61,486 nucleotides of DNA, taken from an uncultured Candidatus Saccharibacteria bacterium. Lineage in GTDB: Bacteria > Patescibacteriota > SICC01 > CAYSOT01. The position numbers were made by a program, and so were the translations under genes. Location of the stretch: positions 1 to 61,486 of the forward strand of contig CAYSOT010000003.1 in NCBI GenBank assembly GCA_964432765.1. Reading direction: 5' to 3'. Every line of letters starts with the position of its first letter. Position 1 is the first letter of the stretch. The notes beneath the pieces are model-generated. The model was not told where the DNA came from. It was given only the letters and a program-made list of their open reading frames with translations, and made no database searches. Of the stretch, positions 1 to 61,228 are shown one piece after another.

Positions 1-380
1 TCTTCATCAATTAATTCGTCTCGAACCCGTTGATCGATCCCCTCGTAATGACCAGCGAGCAGTATGATGTGCTGATGCTTCGCCAATCCTTCGGCTACTG
101 GCTGTGAGAATGTCGTACCATGCGGTGTTAGGAAGATTCGATGTGAGTCGGTCTGCGAAAGATCTGCAAACGCAGCAAAAAGCGGCTCAGGCCTCAGAAC
201 CATCCCAGCACCTCCTCCGTATGGAGTGTCATCAACTTGCTTACGTGGTCCAAGTCCCCAAGTGCGTAAGTCGTGCACGTGAAAATTAGCGTAGTTGTGC
301 TCACTCGCCTTTCGCATCATTGATTGCGCAAGTGGACCTTCAAAGTACGCCGGGAAAAGTGTGATTACATCAATCCGCAT
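1..380 (-). CDS. trmD: tRNA (guanine-N1)-methyltransferase TrmD, 3'-truncated by the window edge
   Basis: Not in the ORF track. Manual translation from ATG at 380: MRIDVITLFPAYFEGPL...KQVDDTPYGGGAGMVLRPEPL...LLAGHYEGIDQRV, containing the hallmark TrmD motifs. Confidence 0.96.
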   Translation of the reverse strand, partial: MRIDVITLFPAYFEGPLAQSMMRKASEHNYANFHVHDLRTWGLGPRKQVDDTPYGGGAGMVLRPEPLFAAFADLSQTDSHRIFLTPHGTTFSQPVAEGLAKHQHIILLAGHYEGIDQRVRDELIDE

Positions 381-410
381 GGGTTCAGTGTAGTGGTGTT
401 ATTCATATAG

Positions 411-500
411 AAAAAGAAACGGGACCGAGGTCAGTGCGTGGGAGAGCATGTTGATGGCGTTTGAGCCAATGCTTCCGAGCTTTGAACCTGGTCCCGTCTC
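411..500 (-). terminator. Intrinsic terminator or 3' closing helix of the non-coding unit
   Basis: Minus strand GAGACGGGACC-AGG (500-487) pairs with CCT-C-GGTCCCGTTTC (430-416), followed by TTTTT. Confidence 0.6.
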
Positions 501-831
501 ATCTTTCGGAGCGCACTGTTTGATCCCTTCACGGAGGTGCGCGATCAACGAAAGATGAAGTGGTTGGGAGCCGATGAGTAACTCGGATCATCGGCTCCCG
601 GTCCCGGGCGGCGGGAGGTTCACGCATGCCGCGAGGTGCGGGCGGCGGCGGCGTGGGCGCCATCAGACGAGGTACCGAGCATTTCTCCTCATCTGTTGTC
701 GGGGACCGAGCCTCGGTCAGCGGCTGGTCCTGGTTTTCCGCGAGGCGGTGCTCAGCGAGCAAATCGCCTCAGTCTCCTCGCCATGGTCGGCTAGCGAGAA
801 GGGCAGCGCCGTCGTCTCTGACGACAGCATA

Positions 832-913
832 TGAGGGTGGCAGGGATTGAACCTACCCGTCGCATTTTGTTCCCCGAACCGCGCGACGTCGTCCACCGAG
901 TGGACACACCCTC
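832..913 (-). ncRNA. tRNA-like cloverleaf lacking a canonical anticodon loop
   Basis: Acceptor GAGGGTG/CACCCTC+A; D-like arm GTCCA-CTCGG-TGGAC; central arm CGTCGC...GCGACG; T arm GTAGG-TTCAATC-CCTGC. Confidence 0.65.
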
Positions 914-1007: not shown

Positions 1008-1096
1008 AGGCACTGATAGGATTCGAACCTACGACCTTCTCCTTAACATGGAGACGCTCTGCCGCGTGGGATGAACCACATCTGAGCTACAGTGCC
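1008..1096 (-). tRNA. Atypical tRNA with GTT (Asn) anticodon and an expanded D-loop
   Basis: GGCACTG/CAGTGCC acceptor; GCTC/GAGC D-stem with a 24-nt loop; TCTCC-ATGTTAA-GGAGA; AGGTC; GTAGG-TTCGAAT-CCTAT; discriminator T; no CCA. Confidence 0.75.
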
Positions 1097-1153
1097 GCGT
1101 ACTGCAGGCTGGTCTCTGTATGCAAAGGCCAAGCTGCAGTACGCTTATTACGA

Positions 1154-1166
1154 TTTTCAAAGAGCG
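1154..1166 (-). promoter_or_regulatory. boxA-like antitermination element
   Basis: CGCTCTTTGAAAA immediately after the predicted TSS; resembles rrn boxA (GCTCTTTAACA). Confidence 0.55.
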
Positions 1167-1174
1167 ACTAATCC

Positions 1175-1203
1175 ACAGTACAGATGTCCCAGAAGGCTGT
1201 CAA
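1175..1203 (-). promoter_or_regulatory. Sigma70-type promoter for the non-coding unit
   Basis: TTGACA (1203-1198), 17 bp, TACTGT (1180-1175). Confidence 0.7.
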
Positions 1204-1248: not shown

Positions 1249-1767
1249 CTAGAGGTCGTCGAGCGGCGACTTTTCGTCTAGATCGCTTCGGCGCTTGGCG
1301 GACTCTTCTGCTTCTGCTTCTTCTTCGTCAGCCGGGGTTGCTGGATCATCATCTACGTTTTCGCCCGTCGACTCATCAATTTCTTCATCGAGATCGTCAG
1401 GATTATCCCGTAGTGCATCACTTTCATGCTGTGCTTCGCGCAACTCGGTTTCTGCATGGCTTGCTTCTTGACGTGGTGTTTCAAGCTCAACTGCGGCGGT
1501 TCCTGTCGGTTCCTTGGTGCTGCCTTCCGGCTCAATTATCTTCATATTGACTCGTGCGTCGTTCTTGGCACCAACCACCTTGAGAAGGGTTCGAACTGCC
1601 TTCGCTGTCTGACCTGCTTTACCAATGATCTTCCCCATATCGTCAGGGTGAACGGTTACAGAAATTAGCACTCCCATTTCATCAACGGTGCGGTCTACCT
1701 GAACAGAGTCGGGGTTATCTACGATCGCCTTCAGAACATATTCTACAAACTGCTGATCTTGCTCCAT
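1249..1767 (-). CDS. khpA: KH-domain RNA-binding protein (KhpA/YlqC family) with an acidic tail
   Basis: YVLKAIVDNPDSV...VHPDDMGKIIGKAGQTAKAVRTLL (GxxG loop), located after rpsP. Confidence 0.9.
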   Translation of the reverse strand: MEQDQQFVEYVLKAIVDNPDSVQVDRTVDEMGVLISVTVHPDDMGKIIGKAGQTAKAVRTLLKVVGAKNDARVNMKIIEPEGSTKEPTGTAAVELETPRQEASHAETELREAQHESDALRDNPDDLDEEIDESTGENVDDDPATPADEEEAEAEESAKRRSDLDEKSPLDDL

Positions 1768-4819: not shown

Positions 4820-5511
4820 TTCGCCTCCAATTTAGAAGCGAGGGCAGCAGCGGCGGCGGCCTGCTCGGCTTGCTGCTTTGAGCCACCGCTACCTTGGCCG
4901 ACTTGGCGATCGCGAATATAAACCCCGACAGTGAACTCCTTAGCATGGTCTGGACCACTTGAGCTTAGGATCTCGTAGCGCGGTGTGATACTGAACTTAT
5001 CTTGCGCCTCTTCTTGAAGCGCGCTTTTTGGATCGCGGTCTTTTTTGCTTTCGATGATTTCTGGCAGAAGAACCACGACATGTCGATGAATAACCTCTTT
5101 GGCCACATCGTATCCTTGATCAAGATATAAAGCCCCAAGCAGCGCCTCAAAGGCGTTAGCTAGGAGAGCTTGGCGAGTCCGGCCACCACTCTTTTCCTCA
5201 CCGTGGGACATTAAGAGAGCCTCTCCCACACCAAGTGGGCCTGCGATCTTCGCGAGCATCTCTCCTCGAACAACCGCGGAACGCCAGCTGGTAAGCTCAC
5301 CTTCCGGATTTGGATATGTGGCATAGAGATGCTCAGTAATCACCAGTTCAAGGACGGCGTCACCTAGGAACTCCAGGCGCTCATTGTGTGGAAGATTGTG
5401 CGAGCGGTGCTCGTTCAAGTAGGAGCGATGTGTCAGTGCCGTCGACAACAAATCACGGTCTTTGAAACTCACCCCGAGGGCATTCTCGAGTTTGGCGATT
5501 CGATCAGGCAT
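4816..5511 (-). CDS. rnc: Ribonuclease III
   Basis: HNERLEFLGDAVLEL signature and C-terminal dsRBD (GPDHAKEF). Confidence 0.98.
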   Translation of the reverse strand: MPDRIAKLENALGVSFKDRDLLSTALTHRSYLNEHRSHNLPHNERLEFLGDAVLELVITEHLYATYPNPEGELTSWRSAVVRGEMLAKIAGPLGVGEALLMSHGEEKSGGRTRQALLANAFEALLGALYLDQGYDVAKEVIHRHVVVLLPEIIESKKDRDPKSALQEEAQDKFSITPRYEILSSSGPDHAKEFTVGVYIRDRQVGQGSGGSKQQAEQAAAAAALASKLEAK

Positions 5512-5977
5512 AGAGCTCCTTAGCTCTGGTGACGGCGAGCTGACTCAATTCTCGTAGGTTCTTATAGCCGATTGCCGTAGTGGTCGTAGATGCGTCAAAC
5601 CAGCGCGCATCCTTAACAAGGTGGTCAACCGGATCAAATTTCTCTGGATCAAGACGAGCACTTCCCACAAGCTCAAGCAAGTAGACATCAACTTGCTTAT
5701 GGACCATCCGACCACGGTAGCGAAAACTGTATTTGTTCTTGCCGAGATGTTCGATTACCTTGCTTGTCACTCCCGCTTCTTCAGATATTTCACGAACGGC
5801 AGCCTGCTCTGCTGATTCACCAGGATCGAGATGGCCTTTTGGTATCGTCCAGCGGTCGTCGAATGAATTCTTGATGAGCAGAAATTCGAGTTCTTTTTTC
5901 TCTGGGTTGACCACAAATCCCCCAGCCGAGTGAACCGACAGCGCGGAGTTTCGTATGCCGAGTTTCTTAAGCATCAT
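5504..5977 (-). CDS. Nudix hydrolase (Ap4A-hydrolase-like)
   Basis: PKGHLDPGESAEQAAVREISEEAGV Nudix box; start moved to ATG 5977, overlapping the nusB stop. Confidence 0.88.
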   Translation of the reverse strand: MMLKKLGIRNSALSVHSAGGFVVNPEKKELEFLLIKNSFDDRWTIPKGHLDPGESAEQAAVREISEEAGVTSKVIEHLGKNKYSFRYRGRMVHKQVDVYLLELVGSARLDPEKFDPVDHLVKDARWFDASTTTTAIGYKNLRELSQLAVTRAKELYA

Positions 5978-6410
5978 CTTCCTTTGCCGCCTCTTCTGAA
6001 TATCGATCGCTACCACGGTAAATGGTCCCGAGCACTCCATTAACGAAGGAACCTGAATTCTCGCCGCCGTAGGTCTTTGCCAACTCAACAGCCTCATTAA
6101 TTGCCACCTTAGGTGGTATGTCGTGAGAATAGAGCACTTCGTATACCCCAACCCGGAGCACGGCACGATCGATCGATGCAATTTGATCGAGTGGCCATTC
6201 TGGTGCATTCTTCGCAATTAGTTCATTGAGTTGATCAAAACGCTTCGCGACACCTTCCGCCGAGTCAACGACGTAGGCAGCATCCTCAACGTCCTTGCCG
6301 GCTAGTCGAACGTTTCGTTTCACAATTTCAGACAGCTCCACTTCAGGATGGAACTCCCACTCATAGAGCGACTGCATCAGGATTGTTCGGAGGAGGTGCC
6401 GGTTTGCCAT
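5967..6410 (-). CDS. nusB: Transcription antitermination factor NusB
   Basis: IDRAVLRVGVYE...PPKVAINEAVELAKTYGGENSGSFVNGVLG. Confidence 0.97.
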   Translation of the reverse strand: MANRHLLRTILMQSLYEWEFHPEVELSEIVKRNVRLAGKDVEDAAYVVDSAEGVAKRFDQLNELIAKNAPEWPLDQIASIDRAVLRVGVYEVLYSHDIPPKVAINEAVELAKTYGGENSGSFVNGVLGTIYRGSDRYSEEAAKEDDA

Positions 6411-6616: not shown

Positions 6617-7069
6617 TTAGTCTACCGTTTTTTCAGGGTCAGCACTAGCGTGATCATGTGGTTCTTTGTTGAGATCCTTACCGCACACGGCACATAAGCC
6701 GAGACAGTCTGGCTCATGTATCGGGGCAAGCGGGATAGCAAGTAGTAATGCCTCTCGAAGGGGTTCTGCGAGGTCTAGGTTCGCTCCATCCGTCTGAAAG
6801 GCGTCTTCTTGCGTCCTTGAAACAAATACCGCCTCAAATGACGTAGCGATCTGCTCAGGGTATGAAACAAGACACCGGCTGCAGTCGAGCAAGACGGTTC
6901 CGGTGACAGAGCCTTTTACCAGCCAGGAATCTTCCAGCGCAACTATGTCACCTTGCACAGCAAGGTTTTGTACATTCAGATCCCCGAGCGACTCTTTTTC
7001 GGCAACTTCAGCTAGCTCCAGAGTGGCGCCGACTTCTTTGCCACGTAGCGGTGTGATATCAATTTTCAC
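6617..7069 (-). CDS. YceD/DUF177 family protein
   Basis: CSRCL and CEPDCLGLCAVCG-like cysteine motifs (HEPDCLGLCAVCGKDLN); directly upstream of rpmF. Confidence 0.9.
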   Translation of the reverse strand: MKIDITPLRGKEVGATLELAEVAEKESLGDLNVQNLAVQGDIVALEDSWLVKGSVTGTVLLDCSRCLVSYPEQIATSFEAVFVSRTQEDAFQTDGANLDLAEPLREALLLAIPLAPIHEPDCLGLCAVCGKDLNKEPHDHASADPEKTVD

Positions 7070-9948
7070 TTCAGCACGAAATTTATCAGCTTGCCAGGGA
7101 CATAGATCGTCGAGCTTGGCTCGCTTCCCGCTAAGTGCGATTGTACGTTTGGATCAGCCAGCGCAGCAGCGGTCACGCTTTCTTTGCCCTGCTCACCGCT
7201 TGGCATTTCTACAGTGGCACGCACTTTCCCATTAACCTGTACGACAATTTTCACGGTCTCATCAGCAAGCAAACTAGCTGTGAATTCTGGCCACTGGGAG
7301 CCAAAGATAGATGATTCATTTCCGAGACTACTCCAGAGCTCTTCGGCAATATGTGGCGCCAGCGGAGAGAGCAAGATAAGATACGTCTCAAACGCTGCCC
7401 GCCACTCAGCTGCCGGTAGCGCGGCGTCGCTACCTTTTAATTGATACAGTTCATTGAGCGCCTCCATCAGGGCACTGACTGCCGTGTTGAAGCGGAATTG
7501 TTCGATAGATCTCGTTACATCACGAATAGCCTTTTGCGTTGCACGAGCGAGAGACGTTGCCTGGACGCCGACGGGTGTGTTGTTCGAAGAAGACAAGGGT
7601 TCATCGCCAATTGACTGCGAAAGCTCTTGTCCGAGTACCCAGACGCGCTTCAGAAAACGATAGACACCTTCAATCCCTTGAGTGCTCCAGTTGGCGGCCT
7701 GATCATAGGGGCCGATAAACATTTCGTAGACGCGCAGTGTATCGGCACCATATGCCTCAACTATCTCGTCCGGATTAACAACGTTTCCTTTTGACTTACT
7801 CATTTTCTGGCCATCCGCGGCCTGAATCATCCCGTGGTGCCTAAGCGACAAGAACGGCTCTCGGAATGAGAGGTGTCCGAGGTCAGAGAGTGCCATTGTC
7901 CAAAATCGTGCGTAGATTAAGTGGAGCACGGCGTGGTCAGCACCTCCAACATACACATCAACTGGTGCCCATTTTTGCAATGAGGCAGCATCCCAAGCGT
8001 GCTGCGAAACATGGGGACTGGGGTAGCGCAAGAAATACCAGCTTGAATCAGCAAACGTATCCATCGTGTCCGTTTCACGCTGTGCTGGCTTGCCGCAGCT
8101 AGGGCACTCAACAGAAACCCAGTCCGAAACCTTTGCGAGCGGGCTACGTCCATCACCCGTTGGCAGATAATCATCGAGCGAGGGCAAGGTTACCGGCAGG
8201 TCCTTCTCCGGAACCGGCACCTCGCCACAATCATCGCAATGCACGATTGGAATCGGCGCGCCCCAGTATCGTTGGCGCGAAATCAACCAATCGCGGAGCT
8301 TAAAGCGTTTTGTGGGTTTAGCGCGATCCAGAAGTCCAAGATCAGCCGTGATCTGATCACGAGCGACGCTACTTGCGAGCCCATCGTAGTCACCCGAGTT
8401 AATCAGTACCCCTTCACCGGTGTAAGCAACGCCTTCAATGAGCCAGGCAAAAGCGAGAGAATGCATCGGGTCATCTACTTTTTCCTTGGCTTCGCCGGGT
8501 GAAAGCCACTGATGCGTAAACATACCCTTTTCATGATCCTCTAGCTCGACTGCAACTTGCTCGCTACTACGAAGCTTGAAGTGGACAAAAACAGCCTCGG
8601 TAACTCGTGCCTTATTGTGCGCGATTGTACGGTAATGATTCTTGGCAACTCCGCCGCTTGTGAGATATTCGAGATCGGTGTAGCCAGTTTCCTCGGCGAC
8701 CTCTCGCCTTGCTGCATCAACAGGATCTTCGCCATCATCCCTTCCACCACCAACGAAAAGATGCTGTCCATCCTTCCATCGAAGTGAAAGAACATTTCCC
8801 TGGCGGTCCTCGACAATGGCGACGATACTCTGTCGCTGCTCCTCCCCTTCAATCGGCGCGCCCGTCTCCGGCATAATCACCTGCTTGATCGGCAGGTCGA
8901 ACTTTTTGGCAAATTGCATGTCGCGATCATCGTGTGCAGGTACGGCCATAATGGCGCCGGTCCCGTAGCTTGCCAGCACATAATCCGCAATCCAAATCGG
9001 CAACCGCTCGCCATTCGCAGGATTTTCTGCATAGGATCCGGTAAAGACGCCGCTCTTTTCGCGATCCAGAGCAGTGCGCTCAATTTCCGATTGCGTTTTT
9101 GTATCAGCGACATATTTCTTCACCGCATCCAGCTGCTCGGGAGTGGTGAGTTTTTCAACGAGTGAATGTTCCGGGGCAAGCACCAGATAGGAAGCACCAA
9201 AAAGAGTATCTGGCCTCGTGCTGTACACGACGATCTCACCCGCTGGTGAGTTAAAGCTCAGATCGGTGCCGACGCTACGACCAATCCAGTTGCGCTGCAA
9301 TGCCTTGATTGATTCTGGCCAATCGAGCTCTTCCAGATTATTAAGTAACTCATCTGCGTACTGGGTGACTTTGAAGTACCACTGGGTTAGCTCCTTTTTG
9401 GTAACGGTCGTACCGCAGCGCTCACATGCGCCGTCGATAACTTGTTCATTCGCCAGCACTGTCTTGTCGCTTGGACACCACCACTGCCACCCACCTGCCC
9501 GATACGCTAAGCCGGCTTTGTGTAATTGCAGGAAAATCCACTGCGTCCAGCGGTAGTATTCTGGAGACGAAGTATCTACTTCCCGATTCCAGTCGTAGGA
9601 AAATCCGAGACGTTTCAGCTGCCGTCGGAAATTGGCAATATTGGTCGCGGTGTTTTCTGCGGGATGAACATGTTTCTTAATCGCCGCATTTTCTGCGGGA
9701 AGGCCAAACGCGTCCCAGCCAGTTGCATGCAAAACATCCTCGCCACGGTAGCGGTGATAATGGGCCGTGATATCCGCCGCCGTGTATGGCCTGGGGTGCC
9801 CAACATGCAAGCCATCTCCCGAGGGATAGGGAAACATCGGAATGATGTACTTTTTATTCTTTGGGCTTTCGGGTGCGGCAAAAAGCCGTGTTTCTTCCCA
9901 AACACTTTGCCATTTTGGCTCGATATCCTGCGGTTCGTAACGTTTCAC
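7066..9948 (-). CDS. leuS: Leucine--tRNA ligase with an inserted Nudix domain
   Basis: PYPSGDGLHVGH, GTGAIMAVPAHD editing motif, RDWLISRQRYWG, KMSKSKGNV. Confidence 0.98.
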   Translation of the reverse strand: MKRYEPQDIEPKWQSVWEETRLFAAPESPKNKKYIIPMFPYPSGDGLHVGHPRPYTAADITAHYHRYRGEDVLHATGWDAFGLPAENAAIKKHVHPAENTATNIANFRRQLKRLGFSYDWNREVDTSSPEYYRWTQWIFLQLHKAGLAYRAGGWQWWCPSDKTVLANEQVIDGACERCGTTVTKKELTQWYFKVTQYADELLNNLEELDWPESIKALQRNWIGRSVGTDLSFNSPAGEIVVYSTRPDTLFGASYLVLAPEHSLVEKLTTPEQLDAVKKYVADTKTQSEIERTALDREKSGVFTGSYAENPANGERLPIWIADYVLASYGTGAIMAVPAHDDRDMQFAKKFDLPIKQVIMPETGAPIEGEEQRQSIVAIVEDRQGNVLSLRWKDGQHLFVGGGRDDGEDPVDAARREVAEETGYTDLEYLTSGGVAKNHYRTIAHNKARVTEAVFVHFKLRSSEQVAVELEDHEKGMFTHQWLSPGEAKEKVDDPMHSLAFAWLIEGVAYTGEGVLINSGDYDGLASSVARDQITADLGLLDRAKPTKRFKLRDWLISRQRYWGAPIPIVHCDDCGEVPVPEKDLPVTLPSLDDYLPTGDGRSPLAKVSDWVSVECPSCGKPAQRETDTMDTFADSSWYFLRYPSPHVSQHAWDAASLQKWAPVDVYVGGADHAVLHLIYARFWTMALSDLGHLSFREPFLSLRHHGMIQAADGQKMSKSKGNVVNPDEIVEAYGADTLRVYEMFIGPYDQAANWSTQGIEGVYRFLKRVWVLGQELSQSIGDEPLSSSNNTPVGVQATSLARATQKAIRDVTRSIEQFRFNTAVSALMEALNELYQLKGSDAALPAAEWRAAFETYLILLSPLAPHIAEELWSSLGNESSIFGSQWPEFTASLLADETVKIVVQVNGKVRATVEMPSGEQGKESVTAAALADPNVQSHLAGSEPSSTIYVPGKLINFVLK

Positions 9949-12190: not shown

Positions 12191-12192
12191 TG

Positions 12193-12266
12193 TGGAGATA
12201 GGCGGACTCGAACCGCCGACCTCCTGCATGCCATGCAGGCGCTCTAGCCAACTGAGCTATATCCCC
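12193..12266 (-). tRNA. tRNA-Ala(GGC), no encoded CCA
   Basis: GGGGATA/TATCTCC with G3.U70; CCTGC-ATGGCAT-GCAGG; GTTCGAGTC T-loop. Confidence 0.97.
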
Positions 12267-14565: not shown

Positions 14566-15894
14566 TCAAGCCACATTCTCCCCAAGCTCCTTTATGCGGC
14601 GCTTGAGATACTCGCTTGTGTTCCTGCCTGGGTCATCGAGGACCTCTTCGAGTAATTGCTGCATGATTTCACCAATCCGTGGCCCAGGAGCAATATCCAA
14701 GATCTTCATAACGTCGGTACCATTAACGACTAACATTCGTGTGTCAATCGGATCTTTCTGAACCTCTACAACGCGTTCCTGAAAATTTTGAAGCTTCTTC
14801 GTATAACCAATCTTGCAACCAGAGCCGAGCCTGTCGCCTACTCGTAAATCGACCAGATCCTGGATATTTTCTGGTCCAACCCGACGGATAATCCTGCGAA
14901 TGGCTTTGTCTGTGGACTCAAATTGAAACAGAAACATGTGATGTCTAACAAGATTCGTGACACGCTCAGTATCCGCTTTGGAAAATGCGAGCCGTTTCAT
15001 AATCTGGCGGGTCATGCGGGCACCGATTACTTCATGCCCGTGGAATGTTCGTTCTGCTTCCGGACCGTGCGCCGAGCGTGGCTTCCCAACATCGTGCAGG
15101 AGTGCCGCTAGGCGAACTAGCGGGTCTGTCGACGGCGTCGTCTGAAGCGAACGTATGGAGTGCTCCAGGACATCATATTTATGGTGTTTCGGCTGACTCA
15201 TGCTTTCACCCTCAAGCAGCTCCGGAATGATTTCTTTCAAAAGACCTACTTCATACAGCAAGCGAATTCCTCCGGCTGGGTCGCTTGATGCCAGAATTTT
15301 CATAAGTTCGTCTCGCACTCTCTCGCCAGATACATTTCGAATGTTTTGGGAGCCAACTACTATCGCATTACGCGTTTCTTTCTCGAGCTTAAATCCGAGC
15401 TGGACAGTGAAACGAACCGCGCGCATGAGACGAAGTGCGTCTTCCGTGAATCGCTGATCAGGATTTCCAACGGTGCGAACAAGATGTTTTTGCAAATCGA
15501 GTAAGCCACCGAAAGGATCAACAAGAGCGTCATCTCGCCATGCCATCGCGTTGATCGTGAAATCACGACGTGCGAGGTCTTCCTCGAGCGTCTTTAGAAA
15601 CGTCACTTTGCCTGGGTGCCTTGAATCTTCGTAGGCGCTCTCGCTGCGGTAGGTTGTGACCTCGTAAACATTTCGACCCACAATAACACCGACTGTACCA
15701 AAACTGTTTTCGTAGACCGTTTTCGAGAATACACGCCGTATTTCCTCGGGTGTGGCGTTCGTAGCGATATCCCAATCCTTGGGCACAACTTCGCGAACCA
15801 TATCCCGGACGCAACCGCCGACTAATACGGCCTCAAAGCCAGCCGCCTCCAGCTCGGCCAGAATACCTTGCACCTGTTTTGGCACATTTGTCAT
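14566..15894 (-). CDS. cca: CCA tRNA nucleotidyltransferase with HD domain
   Basis: VGGCVRD...KDWDIAT, RRDFTINA, EDALRLMRAVRF, LLHDVGK. A poly(A)-polymerase or partial CC/A-adding activity cannot be excluded. Confidence 0.85.
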   Translation of the reverse strand: MTNVPKQVQGILAELEAAGFEAVLVGGCVRDMVREVVPKDWDIATNATPEEIRRVFSKTVYENSFGTVGVIVGRNVYEVTTYRSESAYEDSRHPGKVTFLKTLEEDLARRDFTINAMAWRDDALVDPFGGLLDLQKHLVRTVGNPDQRFTEDALRLMRAVRFTVQLGFKLEKETRNAIVVGSQNIRNVSGERVRDELMKILASSDPAGGIRLLYEVGLLKEIIPELLEGESMSQPKHHKYDVLEHSIRSLQTTPSTDPLVRLAALLHDVGKPRSAHGPEAERTFHGHEVIGARMTRQIMKRLAFSKADTERVTNLVRHHMFLFQFESTDKAIRRIIRRVGPENIQDLVDLRVGDRLGSGCKIGYTKKLQNFQERVVEVQKDPIDTRMLVVNGTDVMKILDIAPGPRIGEIMQQLLEEVLDDPGRNTSEYLKRRIKELGENVA

Positions 15895-30665: not shown

Positions 30666-32414
30666 TTACTCCACCACCGCCTTCACGCGCCGCACTCCGG
30701 CCCCAACAGACTCTTGTTTCGTAATTCTGAAGTTACCAATTAAACCAGTATGCGTAACATGAGGACCGCCGCAGAATTCTTTTGAGGTCGCACTTTCTGG
30801 ATCTCCGACAAAGTAGACTGAAACAGTCTCGGGATATTTGTGTCCGAATTCCATTTGGGCACCGATTCGCTCAGCCTCAGCTCTTGGCATCTCTCGACGC
30901 GTAACTTGGAGGTCTTCTTTAATCCACTCATTCACCTGTGCTTCAATTTGGTGTACTTGCTCGGGAGTTAGCTTTTCGGGATGTGAAAAGTCGAATCGTA
31001 GGCGCTCGGCTGTAATGTTCGAACCACGCTGCTTCACATGTTCACCAAGCACATTCTGCAGGGCAGCATTCAGAAGGTGGGTCGCGGTATGAAGCTTCAC
31101 TACTTCATCTGAGTGGTCGGCGAGACCGCCGGCAAACTTCTGTTCTGCCCCACTGCGTGACTTTGCCTGGTGCTCTGCAAACGCTGCCTTAAAATCACGG
31201 CGCAGGGCCACTTCATCAATATCGGCTTTATGCTGCTTCAGTTCTTCGATTCCCAGCTCAAAAGGAAAACCATAGGTCTCAAACAAGAAAAAGAGCTCTT
31301 TACCTGTAAGCGTTTTACGCTTTTCAAACTCCTTAATACCACGTTCTATGGTGCGAGCGAACTTCGCCTCTTCTCCTGTGAGCTCAGCGATAATCGCGCC
31401 CTCTTCTCTCGTTAACTCTGGGTAGGCCGCCGCATATTCACCGATAACCGCTCGCGCAATTGTCTCTACAAATGGCACTTCAATGCCGAGATGCCTTGCC
31501 TGCCGTATCGCCCGTCGAATGAGCCGCCGAAGAATGTAGCCGCGTTCTACGTTTGAGGGCTTCACGCCATCTGCCACCATAAATGTTGCGGCCTTTAAGT
31601 GATCAGCGACGATGCGTGCAGCGCGTAGGTCGTATTTTTTTGAAATTTTTGCAATGCTCCCAAGTAACGGTGCAAAGAGGTCCGTGTCGTAAATATTGTC
31701 TGCCTCTTGCATGATCGCGCTGATACGCTCGAGACCCATTCCAGTGTCTACGTTACGCTGCGCCAAAGCCTCAAATGTGCCTTCATGCGTTTTGTTGTAC
31801 TGCATGAAGACGTTATTCCAAACTTCAATCCAGCGATCATCCGTCGCCGGCTCTCCGCTTGGCTTTCCGTCACCTACCCAATAAAAGACCTCTGTATCTG
31901 GACCACACGGACCTGTCTCGCCGGCTGGTCCCCACCAGTTGTCTTCTTTGCCATAGTAGTAAACCCGATCGCCTGGGAAATTTGGTTGTTTCCGCCAGAT
32001 GGTAGCCGCTTCTTCATCGCGCGGCGCGTCATCATCCCCGGCAAAAACTGAAACCGCCATTTGGTCTGCCTTGAGCCCAAGCACTTTGGTAAGAAATTCC
32101 CACGTCCAAGCTATCGACTCTTCTTTAAAATAATCACCGAGCGACCAGTTCCCGAGCATTTCCAGGAATGTAGCATGCGTATCGTCGCCAACTTCATCAA
32201 TATCTGTGGTGCGGATACATTTCTGAACGCTCGCAAGTCGTTTGCCACCAGGGTGAGGCTCTCCAAGCAGATAAGGGACTAGTGGATGCATACCTGCCGT
32301 AATAAAAAGAACCGTTGGATCGTGTTGTGGAACTACCGGAGCACTGGGCAATATTGCATGCCCCCGATCAGCAAAGAAGGACAGAAAAGCCGATCTGATC
32401 TCGCCCGACTTCAT
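30666..32414 (-). CDS. alaS: Alanine--tRNA ligase, lacking the C-Ala domain (582 aa)
   Basis: QKCIRT, HATFLEMLGNWSLGDYFK, DTGMGLER, HTATHLL and CGGPH editing motifs. Confidence 0.97.
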   Translation of the reverse strand: MKSGEIRSAFLSFFADRGHAILPSAPVVPQHDPTVLFITAGMHPLVPYLLGEPHPGGKRLASVQKCIRTTDIDEVGDDTHATFLEMLGNWSLGDYFKEESIAWTWEFLTKVLGLKADQMAVSVFAGDDDAPRDEEAATIWRKQPNFPGDRVYYYGKEDNWWGPAGETGPCGPDTEVFYWVGDGKPSGEPATDDRWIEVWNNVFMQYNKTHEGTFEALAQRNVDTGMGLERISAIMQEADNIYDTDLFAPLLGSIAKISKKYDLRAARIVADHLKAATFMVADGVKPSNVERGYILRRLIRRAIRQARHLGIEVPFVETIARAVIGEYAAAYPELTREEGAIIAELTGEEAKFARTIERGIKEFEKRKTLTGKELFFLFETYGFPFELGIEELKQHKADIDEVALRRDFKAAFAEHQAKSRSGAEQKFAGGLADHSDEVVKLHTATHLLNAALQNVLGEHVKQRGSNITAERLRFDFSHPEKLTPEQVHQIEAQVNEWIKEDLQVTRREMPRAEAERIGAQMEFGHKYPETVSVYFVGDPESATSKEFCGGPHVTHTGLIGNFRITKQESVGAGVRRVKAVVE

Positions 32415-61150: not shown

Positions 61151-61223
61151 GGCCCCATCGTCTAGTGGACCAGGATATCAGGTTTTCATCCTGAAGACGG
61201 GGGTTCGATTCCCCCTGGGGCTA
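61151..61223 (+). tRNA. tRNA-Glu(TTC), no encoded CCA
   Basis: GGCCCCA/TGGGGCT; TCAGG-TTTTCAT-CCTGA; GTTCGATTC; TACAAT upstream. Confidence 0.97.
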
Positions 61224-61228
61224 CTAGG

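What the first reader, a model, noticed from the sequence alone, without database searches (positions are those of the whole stretch)
1008..1096. GUU-anticodon tRNA with a hairpin inserted in the D-loop and non-Asn identity elements
Seen: the D-loop is 24 nt (AGATGTGGTTCATCCCACGCGGCA) instead of about 8-9 and contains GTGG-TTCATC-CCAC. Position 32 is A, the discriminator is U, and pair 1 is G1-C72. Known: AsnRS and non-discriminating AspRS favour G73, and bacterial GatCAB reads U1-A72. From memory, CCAUGGUAAGG with U73 typifies Firmicute tRNA-Thr(GGU), one base from this CCAUGUUAAGG, but the Thr C2-G71 pair is absent here. Inference: this may be a non-canonical intron-like insert, an anticodon-shifted or re-identified tRNA, or a structural tRNA mimic.
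Basis: partly seen in the sequence, partly recalled or inferred. Interest (0 to 1): 0.75.

Follow-up and report, generated by a model that had tools for sequence, protein, structure and literature searches.

The report
Thr-bodied Asn-anticodon tRNA with D-loop hairpin
A strongly conserved transfer-RNA gene in an uncultured CPR (Patescibacteria) bacterium has the body of a threonine tRNA, the anticodon of an asparagine tRNA and an extra 16-base hairpin in its D-loop, so it is either a re-purposed decoder or a tRNA look-alike with another role.

Summary
On the minus strand at 1008-1096 lies an 89-nt tRNA (Rfam 59.3 bits) that ARAGORN misses. Its D-loop is 24 nt because a 16-nt hairpin sits between nucleotides 16 and 17.

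It is not an assembly error. Three independent assemblies carry it unchanged. Three further sequence variants, from at least two related lineages, keep the hairpin paired.

The tRNA core is the most conserved element of the locus, at 95-100% identity. Neighbouring genes are 69-81% identical and neutral spacer about 40%.

The "non-Asn" features (A32, U73, G1-C72) are hallmarks of bacterial tRNA-Thr(GGU). Nucleotides 8-48 match a Streptomyces tRNA-Thr(GGU) at 39 of 41 positions; one of the two differences is G35 to U.

So this is an anticodon-shifted Thr-type tRNA that has also lost the Thr pair C2-G71. The insert is not a bulge-helix-bulge intron.

AAY codons still mean Asn in this genome.

My best reading (about 45%): a remoulded tRNA-Asn that keeps the hairpin, is charged through its anticodon, and is excluded from GatCAB. 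The main rival (about 30%): a non-decoding tRNA-like module of a stable-RNA operon, because relatives carry Thr-like tRNAs with disrupted anticodon loops at comparable sites.

Charging and expression were not tested.

The parts
1008..1096 (-). 89-nt tRNA gene with anticodon GUU, a Thr(GGU)-type body and no encoded CCA
   Evidence: Rfam RF00005 scores 59.3 bits. The gene is identical in L034-L036. Variants occur in L037, L038 and L164. The core is 95-100% conserved.
1065..1080 (-). 16-nt hairpin UGUGG-UUCAUC-CCACG inserted between D-loop nt 16 and 17. G18 G19 C20 A21 follow it at 1063-1060.
   Evidence: Read directly. It is paired in all 4 variants, and 3 of 6 pairs vary on one side only. Hairpin energies are -4.7 to -9.4 kcal/mol. 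Without it the D-loop is AGACGGCA, against AGUCGGCA in Streptomyces tRNA-Thr.
1045..1047 (-). Anticodon GUU in the loop A32-U33-GUU-A37-A38
   Evidence: The loop is invariant in all variants. It is one base (G35U) from the Thr(GGU) loop AUGGUAA.
1097..1144 (-). 48-nt hairpin that ends exactly at the tRNA 5' end; a candidate processing stem
   Evidence: Read directly. It is conserved in L037 and L164, with a G-C to A-U exchange.
1154..1166 (-). Leader CGCUCUUUGAAAA, which resembles a boxA antitermination element. The resemblance is from memory and was not tested.
   Evidence: 87% conserved. Similar leaders are present in L039, L042 and L166.
1175..1203 (-). Promoter-like TTGACA, 17 nt, TACTGT
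   Evidence: The -35 hexamer is conserved in all variants. The strict consensus scan does not call it, because the -10 matches only 3 of 6. This is an inference.
832..913 (-). Second, aberrant tRNA-like element: a 7-bp acceptor, D and T arms, and a 6-bp 'anticodon' stem with a 17-19-nt loop
   Evidence: It gives only a weak tRNA-Sec hit of 19.3 bits. It shows compensatory changes in L037 and L164 and is 76-78% conserved.
405..831 (-). Roughly 430-nt structured RNA of unknown family that ends in a U-run just before trmD
   Evidence: RNAalifold predicts 131 pairs, 9 with compensatory changes. No Rfam family matches. The 3' half is 88-90% conserved.
1249..1767 (-). KH-domain (KhpA/B) gene that flanks the RNA cassette upstream
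   Evidence: Pfam PF13083.
1..380 (-). 5' part of trmD, which flanks the cassette downstream and runs off the window
   Evidence: Gene calls in L034 and L035 carry PF01746. Alignment A1.

Best explanation
This is an expressed, selected tRNA gene that arose from a tRNA-Thr(GGU)-type gene.

Three changes define it:
1. G35 became U, giving the Asn anticodon GUU.
2. The Thr identity pair C2-G71 became G2-C71.
3. A 16-nt hairpin was inserted between D-loop nucleotides 16 and 17.

Inferred mechanism:
- It is transcribed from its own promoter as the first RNA of a stable-RNA operon.
- RNase P and 3' trimming release it, and the genome's CCA-adding enzyme completes it.
- The hairpin stays in the mature tRNA. 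All nucleotides that build the L-shape are intact (U8, A14, G15-C48, G18G19, A21, the 9-12-23, 13-22-46 and 10-25-45 triples, and the T-loop). Positions 16/17 point to solvent, so the helix should project from the side of the elbow.
- It reads AAC/AAU after being charged with Asn by an AsnRS that relies mainly on G34-U35-U36.
- G1-C72 and the oversized D-loop keep it out of the AspRS/GatCAB route.

Shown: sequence, conservation, Thr-type ancestry and AAY = Asn.
Inferred: expression, retention of the hairpin, charging and decoding.
For: - Rfam scores it 59.3 bits despite the insert.
- All four variants pair at 107 of 107 stem cells. Pair 6-67 passes through U-A, U-G and C-G, and pair 49-65 through G-U and G-C.
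- The core is 95-100% identical between lineages whose S16, KH and trmD genes are 69-81% identical and whose unconstrained spacer is about 40% identical. The neighbouring tRNA-like element, which appears constrained only in structure, is 76-78% identical.
- Nucleotides 8-48 are 39 of 41 identical to Streptomyces tRNA-Thr(GGU), including A32, A38 and U73.
- The changes away from Thr identity (G35, C2-G71) are what a remoulded tRNA needs. Identity sets are from PMC9976931.
- AAY codons sit at universally conserved Asn positions of enolase and make up 2.9% of codons. A GUU decoder is therefore required, and it must carry Asn.
- A CCA-adding enzyme is encoded at 14566-15894, and the window's other tRNAs also lack an encoded CCA.
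- G1-C72 plus an enlarged D-loop abolished GatCAB amidation in vitro (PMC1635274).
- D-loop helices can be maintained by selection in bacteria. The Solirubrobacterales tRNA family shows 3 of 7 hairpin pairs with compensatory changes, and 0 of 500 shuffles reached its covariation score.
Against: - U73 replaces G73, a known determinant for E. coli AsnRS (PMC9976931).
- The rest of the genome is unseen, so a canonical tRNA-Asn may exist. Whether asnS is present is unknown; neither asnS nor gatCAB was found among 23 scanned proteins of the window.
- Relatives at 57-60% KH identity have no RNA genes in the KH-trmD gap.
- A homologous Thr-like tRNA in L039 has an 8-nt loop, UUCACACA. Those in L042 and L166 have 8- and 10-nt loops or broken arms. 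The wider family is therefore not held to a single anticodon.
- With only four distinct sequences, the hairpin statistics have no power: 370 of 500 shuffles did as well. Every hairpin change is a transition opposite G or U.
- There are no expression data.
- A helix next to G18/G19 could clash with RNase P or with ribosomal elbow contacts.
Confidence: 0.45

Rival explanations
1. It is a non-decoding tRNA-like module. A disabled tRNA-Thr copy is kept in a stable-RNA operon as a processing or punctuation signal for RNase P and 3' maturation, or as a decoy or binding platform for a tRNA-Thr-recognising factor. The anticodon GUU is then only one of several ways the Thr anticodon loop has been disrupted.
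For: - It is embedded between a leader hairpin, a second aberrant tRNA-like element and a roughly 430-nt structured RNA, all conserved.
- Comparable cassettes in relatives carry Thr-like tRNAs (acceptor GCCG.../...CGGC plus U73), each with a different defect. L039 has an 8-nt loop. L042 has an 8-nt loop, a 6-nt loop and a 4-nt T-loop. L166 has a truncated D stem and a 10-nt loop.
- Its determinant set fits none of ThrRS, AsnRS or AspRS as known from model bacteria.
Against: - The core is conserved at sequence level (95-100%), including the 7-nt loop with U33 and A37. This is far more than the structure-only conservation of the adjacent tRNA-like element, at 76-78%.
- The loop is a perfect canonical anticodon loop, unlike those of the relatives.
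- The 2-71 swap looks like identity tuning, which a processing signal would not need.
Confidence: 0.3
2. It is a mistranslating tRNA. It is charged with Thr through residual Thr features, or with Asp by a non-discriminating AspRS and then not amidated, so it inserts Thr or Asp at some Asn codons.
For: - It has a Thr-type body with G1-C72 and U36.
- G1-C72 plus a large D-loop would block GatCAB amidation of Asp-tRNA.
- Deliberate mistranslation by anomalous tRNAs is known in other bacteria. This is from my own knowledge and was not checked here.
Against: - G35 and C2-G71, the main ThrRS determinants, are both lost.
- AspRS determinants G73 and C38 are absent.
- Conserved Asn positions are encoded by AAY as usual.
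Confidence: 0.1
3. The 16-nt hairpin is an intervening sequence that is removed after transcription, leaving a normal 73-nt tRNA.
For: - Removing exactly the 16 nt restores the 8-nt D-loop AGACGGCA.
- Archaeal tRNAs carry short introns in the D-loop. All 11 GTDB hits to the long-D-loop GUU pattern are archaeal.
Against: - No bulge-helix-bulge can be formed. The only partial motif (GCU/GGC helix with AGA bulge) would cut out G18G19.
- The genome is bacterial.
- The insert is too short for a group I or group II intron.
- In L037 and L164 the insert is flanked by 3 extra nt, so excision would not give a uniform product.
Confidence: 0.05
4. It is a decaying pseudogene or a sequencing or assembly artefact.
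For: ARAGORN does not call it. Its determinant set is odd.
Against: Six independent contigs carry it, and it is the best-conserved element of the locus with compensatory stem changes.
Confidence: 0.03

Closest known systems
Bacterial tRNA-Thr(GGU), for example Streptomyces sp. BHT-5-2 (L168) and Brevibacillus laterosporus (L169)
   Same: The D stem, the D-loop ends (AG..GGCA), nucleotide 26, the anticodon stem UCUCC/GGAGA, A32, U33, U36, A37, A38, the variable loop AGGUC, G1-C72 and U73 all match. Nucleotides 8-48 are 39 of 41 identical to L168.
   Different: Position 35 is U, not G. Pair 2-71 is G-C, not C-G. A 16-nt hairpin sits between nt 16 and 17. The acceptor stem differs otherwise.
Alloacceptor anticodon shifts, or tRNA remoulding (eukaryotic nuclear genomes PMC3923123; metazoan mitochondria PMC4783518; yeast mitochondrial tRNA-Thr derived from tRNA-His PMC3113583)
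   Same: The tRNA body belongs to one acceptor family and the anticodon to another, by a single anticodon substitution.
   Different: Those cases are eukaryotic or organellar. Here the host is a free-standing bacterial genome, the shift comes with a D-loop helix, and the new identity has not been shown.
Archaeal tRNA introns at non-canonical positions (bulge-helix-bulge), including D-loop introns (L001-L011)
   Same: A short extra hairpin interrupts the D-loop of a GUU tRNA gene.
   Different: There is no BHB motif and the genome is bacterial. The insert behaves as a retained helix.
Canonical bacterial tRNA-Asn
   Same: Anticodon GUU with U33 and A37. The overall similarity to annotated phage tRNA-Asn is 81-84%.
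   Different: It lacks G73, U1-A72 and C32. No A32-GUU tRNA of this body type exists in 185,579 GTDB species genomes.
Solirubrobacterales tRNA(UUC) with a 7-bp D-loop helix
   Same: A bacterial class-I tRNA with a conserved helix inside the D-loop. Its body (Lys/Arg-like) also appears not to match its anticodon.
   Different: That helix lies after G18G19, in the beta region around 20a/b, not before them. It is in a different phylum, and I found no literature on it.

Membership tests
tRNA (Rfam RF00005) | Covariance-model score above the gathering score of 29 bits | tested here: met
   59.3 bits over model positions 1-71.
tRNA (Rfam RF00005) | Cloverleaf with conserved tertiary nucleotides (U8, A14, G18G19, A21, U33, GUUCRA T-loop, G15-C48) | tested here: met
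   Read directly from the sequence. All stems pair in all variants.
tRNA (Rfam RF00005) | D-loop of about 7-11 nt | tested here: not met
   24 nt in the window and 27 nt in L037, L038 and L164.
Bacterial tRNA-Asn | Anticodon G34 U35 U36 | tested here: met
   GUU at window 1047-1045.
Bacterial tRNA-Asn | Discriminator G73, an AsnRS determinant (PMC9976931) | tested here: not met
   U73 in all variants.
Bacterial tRNA-Asn | U1-A72 and a short D-loop, the GatCAB determinants (PMC1635274) | tested here: not met
   G1-C72 and a 24-nt D-loop.
Bacterial tRNA-Asn | Charged with Asn and decodes AAY | not testable with these tools
   This needs aminoacylation assays or tRNA sequencing.
Bacterial tRNA-Thr(GGU) | Body sequence of the family | tested here: met
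   39 of 41 identical over nt 8-48 to L168. With G35 restored, BLAST identity to Streptomyces, Nonomuraea and Tsukamurella tRNA genes is 87-89%.
Bacterial tRNA-Thr(GGU) | G35 and U36 anticodon determinants | tested here: not met
   U35; U36 is kept.
Bacterial tRNA-Thr(GGU) | G1-C72 and C2-G71 | tested here: not met
   G1-C72 is present, but 2-71 is G-C.
Archaeal-type BHB tRNA intron | Two 3-nt bulges separated by a 4-bp helix at the exon-intron junctions | tested here: not met
   Drawn by hand on the sequence. The only partial motif would remove G18G19.
Archaeal-type BHB tRNA intron | Splicing endonuclease (EndA) in the genome | not tested
   Only 23 window proteins were scanned and none was EndA. 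The rest of the genome is unseen.
Alloacceptor-shifted (remoulded) tRNA | [quoted passage not shown] | tested here: met
   The anticodon arm and variable loop are identical to Thr(GGU) apart from nt 35. They differ widely from an annotated tRNA-Asn, L170.
Alloacceptor-shifted (remoulded) tRNA | Functions with the new identity | not testable with these tools
   There are no expression or charging data.

The most novel reading that the evidence does not exclude
A helix inside the D-loop may mark a so far undescribed class of re-identified bacterial tRNAs, whose body and anticodon belong to different amino acids.

It appears independently in two places:
- A CPR lineage: Thr(GGU) body, Asn anticodon, helix before G18G19.
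- Many Solirubrobacterales: Lys/Arg-like body, Glu anticodon UUC, helix after G18G19.

In this reading the helix acts as a handle or a shield. It could admit a dedicated partner, or exclude GatCAB, D-loop modification enzymes or tRNA-targeting nucleases. That would create a separate tRNA pool for regulated mistranslation, for non-ribosomal use, or as decoys.
Probability: 0.12. Interest if true: 0.85.

Novelty: new variant of a known kind. Interest (0 to 1): 0.62.

Why it matters
- Natural alloacceptor shifts are documented mostly in eukaryotic and organellar genomes. A conserved Thr-to-Asn shift in a bacterium would be a live example of how tRNA identity is rewired: anticodon first, then removal of the old determinant C2-G71, with the discriminator lagging behind.
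- I found no report of a retained helix in the D-loop of a bacterial tRNA. It is absent from the passages I searched in a 2020 review of non-canonical tRNAs and from my six literature searches. It tests how much the tRNA elbow tolerates in RNase P, EF-Tu and the ribosome.
- There is a practical consequence. ARAGORN either misses such genes or reports them as class-II tRNAs with false anticodons such as Ser(ACU) or Pro(GGG). Genome bins would then be scored as lacking a tRNA or as having exotic ones.

Tried and rejected
1. **ARAGORN.** Default settings miss the gene. Relaxed settings give false class-II readings: Arg(ACG) here, Ser(ACU) in L037 and L038, and a 4-base anticodon in L164. I rejected these because the hairpin loop is 6 nt and the implied stems do not pair.
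2. **Synteny with GTDB CPR genomes through S16.** The best hits are Berkelbacteria and Saccharibacteria at 44% identity, with no tRNA at the site.
3. **GTDB pattern scans.** The long-D-loop GUU pattern hits only archaea. The exact anticodon arm gives 0 hits and the generic A32-GUU pattern gives 0 hits. The viral collection also gives 0 hits. The lineage is not among the GTDB representatives.
4. **Metagenome scan.** It produced one extra relative, L164.
5. **BHB intron.** Rejected by inspection of the sequence.
6. **tmRNA, RNase P RNA or any Rfam family for the downstream RNAs.** Nothing was found.
7. **Strict sigma-70 scan.** It does not call the conserved TTGACA/TACTGT site.
8. **Covariation statistics on four sequences.** They have no power.
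9. **Classification by BLAST against annotated collections.** The result is ambiguous: phage hits are mostly tRNA-Asn, and E. coli hits are tRNA-Thr. It became clear only when G35 was restored in the query.
10. **asnS and gatCAB.** Not found among 23 scanned window proteins. This is uninformative for the whole genome.
11. **Literature searches for D-loop insertions in bacterial or CPR tRNAs.** They found no description.

Full report
**What is there.** The window is bacterial. Its gene order (LeuRS, YceD-like, NusB, Nudix, RNase III, SMC, S16, KH, then trmD) and its best protein matches place it in the Candidate Phyla Radiation, or Patescibacteria.

On the minus strand at 1008-1096 Rfam's tRNA model finds an 89-nt gene at 59.3 bits. 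It matches over the whole model, with a 21-nt insertion in the D-loop. ARAGORN reports only the window's tRNA-Ala(GGC) and tRNA-Glu(UUC).

All nucleotides that build the L-shape are canonical. These are U8, A14, G15-C48, G18G19 followed by C20 A21, the triples A9-(U12-A23), G46-(G22-C13) and G45-(G10-C25), and the T-loop. The extra sequence is exactly a 16-nt hairpin, UGUGG-UUCAUC-CCACG, between positions 16 and 17.

The cloverleaf with the hairpin is within 1 kcal/mol of the MFE. The hairpin adds about 6 kcal/mol.

**Not an artefact, and under selection.** The KH protein next to the gene led to three Logan assemblies from different sequencing runs. They carry the identical 89-nt tRNA (L034-L036).

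Two contigs of a relative with a 93% identical KH protein (L037, L038), and one metagenome contig (L164), carry 92-nt variants.

Across the four distinct sequences every stem position pairs, 107 of 107 cells:
- Pair 6-67 runs through U-A, U-G and C-G.
- Pair 49-65 runs through G-U and G-C.
- In the hairpin, three of six pairs change on one side and stay paired.
- In the relatives a sixth G-C pair and a 3-nt linker are added.

With four sequences this has no statistical weight, since 370 of 500 shuffles do as well. All hairpin changes are transitions opposite G or U, which keep pairing automatically.

The stronger argument is the conservation profile between the window and the two other lineages:

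| Segment | Identity |
|---|---|
| tRNA core | 95-100% |
| Hairpin insert | 67-78% |
| S16, KH and trmD genes | 69-81% |
| Neighbouring tRNA-like element | 76-78% |
| Unconstrained spacer | about 40% |

The tRNA is the best-conserved element of the locus, at the sequence level. This is how working tRNAs behave.

**What kind of tRNA it is.** With the insert removed, annotated phage matches are mostly tRNA-Asn at 81-84% identity. The best E. coli match is tRNA-Thr.

Restoring G at position 35 raised identity to Streptomyces, Nonomuraea and Tsukamurella tRNA genes to 87-89%. Reading those genes settled the question.

Streptomyces tRNA-Thr(GGU) is GCCCCAA UA GCUC AGUCGGCA GAGC G UCUCC AUGGUAA GGAGA AGGUC ... 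U73. Over nucleotides 8-48 the window tRNA matches it at 39 of 41 positions. The differences are nucleotide 16 and G35/U35. Brevibacillus tRNA-Thr(GGU) also has A32 and A38.

An annotated tRNA-Asn (Bacillus phage BCP8-2) has C32, G73 and an unrelated anticodon stem.

So A32, U73 and G1-C72 are not random oddities.

Relative to that family the gene has three changes: G35 to U, C2-G71 to G2-C71, and the D-loop hairpin. G35 and C2-G71 belong to the classes of elements (anticodon nucleotides and acceptor-stem pairs) that the identity review assigns to Thr. That these two specifically are ThrRS determinants is my own recollection. The same review says that Asn identity rests on the anticodon plus G73 (PMC9976931).

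No tRNA with A32-U33-GUU-A37-A38 in this kind of body exists in 185,579 GTDB species genomes or in the viral collection. Relatives therefore do not routinely use this body as tRNA-Asn.

**What the genome needs.** Asn residues that are invariant in enolases (GANA, NVINGG, HADN, VTN, NQIG, KYN) are encoded as AAY here. AAY makes up 2.9% of codons and ACY 2.7%. The code is therefore standard at these codons, and a working GUU tRNA must carry Asn to be harmless.

The window encodes a CCA-adding enzyme, and its two ordinary tRNAs also lack an encoded CCA. The missing CCA is therefore normal.

No AsnRS, AspRS or GatCAB lies among the 23 scanned proteins of the window. That says nothing about the rest of the genome.

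Bailly et al. showed that bacterial GatCAB needs U1-A72. They also showed that G1-C72 together with one extra D-loop nucleotide abolishes amidation (PMC1635274). This tRNA should therefore be invisible to the indirect pathway.

Both candidate synthetases, ThrRS and AsnRS, are class II enzymes. Class II enzymes approach tRNA from the variable-loop side, away from the D-loop. This is established knowledge and was not tested here.

**Is the insert an intron?** The only hits in GTDB to a GUU tRNA with a long D-loop are archaeal. Archaea have short D-loop introns flanked by a bulge-helix-bulge.

No such motif can be drawn here. The only partial one (GCU/GGC helix, AGA bulge, inner hairpin) would excise G18G19. 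The genome is bacterial. The insert is far too short for a self-splicing intron. The relatives carry three more nucleotides next to the hairpin. I give excision about 5%.

**Context, and the reason for caution.** The gene sits in an 870-bp RNA cassette between the KH gene and trmD. In order, the cassette contains:
- a conserved TTGACA-17-TACTGT site;
- a leader CGCUCUUUGAAAA that resembles a boxA antitermination element (from memory);
- a 48-nt hairpin ending exactly at the tRNA 5' end;
- the tRNA;
- a spacer;
- a second, clearly aberrant tRNA-like element (832-913);
- a roughly 430-nt RNA with 131 predicted pairs, nine of them compensatory, ending in a U-run before trmD.

No Rfam family matches the two downstream RNAs.

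Relatives with 57-60% KH identity have a KH-trmD gap of only about 20-100 nt. Others have different RNA cassettes with similar leaders, and these contain Thr-like tRNAs (acceptor GCCG.../...CGGC, U73) with damaged decoding parts:
- L039: an 8-nt loop, UUCACACA. This tRNA is homologous to the window tRNA through the 3' trailer (78.9% over 71 nt).
- L042: an 8-nt loop AUUUCAUG, a 6-nt loop, and a Thr(CGU)-like gene with a 4-nt T-loop, next to an IS1595 transposase.
- L166: a missing D-stem strand and a 10-nt loop.

This pattern suggests a clade-specific family of tRNA-Thr derivatives that are not all decoders. It keeps open the reading that the window gene is a tRNA-like module (processing signal, decoy or binding platform) rather than a tRNA-Asn.

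Three observations argue against that reading. The window gene has a perfect 7-nt loop with U33 and A37. It shows sequence-level conservation that its structure-only neighbour lacks. It has swapped the 2-71 pair.

**Comparison and novelty.** In function it most resembles a remoulded (alloacceptor-shifted) tRNA. That kind is well documented in eukaryotic nuclear and mitochondrial genomes (PMC3923123, PMC4783518, PMC3113583).

It is not a member of tRNA-Asn as defined by G73 and U1-A72. It is no longer a member of tRNA-Thr as defined by G35 and C2-G71.

The retained D-loop helix does not appear in the passages I searched of a 2020 review of non-canonical tRNAs. My literature searches did not find it either.

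It is not unique in nature, however. It was dominated by one Solirubrobacterales tRNA(UUC) with a 7-bp helix after G18G19. That helix has three pairs with compensatory changes, and 0 of 500 shuffles reach its covariation score. Its body looks Lys/Arg-like rather than Glu-like. That second body/anticodon mismatch is why I list a broader class as the novel case.

| Reading | Probability |
|---|---|
| Remoulded Thr-to-Asn tRNA that keeps the D-loop helix | about 0.45 |
| Non-decoding tRNA-like module | about 0.30 |
| Mistranslator | about 0.10 |
| Excised insert | about 0.05 |
| Pseudogene or artefact | about 0.03 |

Expression, maturation, charging and decoding are all inferred, not shown.

Noticed in passing
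window 832-913 (minus strand): A second tRNA-like element. It has a perfect 7-bp acceptor stem (GAGGGUG/CACCCUC), a D arm UCCA-CUCGG-UGGA, a T arm GUAGG-UUCAAUC-CCUGC, and a 6-bp 'anticodon' stem with a 17-19-nt loop holding the conserved UUYGGGGAA. Stem changes in L037 and L164 are compensatory. It gives only a 19-bit tRNA-Sec hit. L166 carries a longer homologue. Its function is unknown.
   Followed up: partly
window 405-831 (minus strand): A roughly 430-nt structured RNA between the tRNA-like element and trmD. RNAalifold predicts 131 pairs, 9 of them compensatory. The 3' half is 88-90% conserved and it ends in a stem plus U-run. It matches no Rfam family and is neither tmRNA nor RNase P RNA. 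L039, L042 and L166 hold long RNAs in similar positions.
   Followed up: partly
window 1097-1203 (minus strand): A conserved TTGACA/TACTGT site, a leader CGCUCUUUGAAAA that resembles an rRNA-operon boxA, and a 48-nt hairpin that abuts the tRNA 5' end. Similar leader-plus-hairpin arrangements precede the odd tRNAs in L039, L042 and L166. This suggests an antiterminated stable-RNA operon.
   Followed up: partly
L039 2327-2400; L042 4215-4445; L166 about 1139-1213: Related CPR genomes carry Thr-like tRNA genes (U73, acceptor GCCG.../...CGGC) with abnormal parts. These include 8-nt anticodon loops (UUCACACA, AUUUCAUG), a 6-nt loop, a 10-nt loop with a truncated D stem, and a Thr(CGU)-like gene with a 4-nt T-loop. 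Two of them still score 50-61 bits with Rfam. In L042 they sit next to an IS1595 transposase.
   Followed up: partly
L044-L163 (for example L047 4107-4185): About 65 of the 80 loci printed, mostly Solirubrobacterales or Thermoleophilia genomes, share one tRNA with anticodon UUC and a 7-bp helix (often with a UUCG loop) inserted after G18G19 in the D-loop. Covariation is strong. The body resembles Actinomycetota tRNA-Lys/Arg rather than tRNA-Glu. One member (L058) has the loop CUACCAC. ARAGORN annotates these genes as Pro(GGG), Val(GAC), Thr(GGU) or with a 4-base anticodon.
   Followed up: partly
L086, L087, L114, L122: Single bacterial genome bins (Enterobacterales, Acidobacteriaceae, Xanthobacteraceae, Alphaproteobacteria) have tRNAs with hairpin-like D-loop expansions. 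Their anticodons are ACG, ACU, UGU and GGU. The ACU one is a class-I body with a Ser-codon anticodon.
   Followed up: no
window 7066-9948 (minus strand): The leucyl-tRNA synthetase (960 aa) carries a NUDIX domain (residues 372-494, Pfam E 7.5e-14) inserted right after a shortened editing domain. A separate NUDIX protein is encoded at 5504-6217.
   Followed up: no
window 30666-32414 (minus strand): The alanyl-tRNA synthetase is only 582 aa: the catalytic core plus the second additional domain, without the usual long C-terminal part.
   Followed up: no
window 12192-12266 and 61151-61224: The two ordinary tRNAs, Ala(GGC) and Glu(UUC), also lack an encoded CCA. tRNA-Ala(GGC) has the A32-U38 pair. 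As ARAGORN delimits it, tRNA-Glu has a G1-U72 first pair.
   Followed up: no
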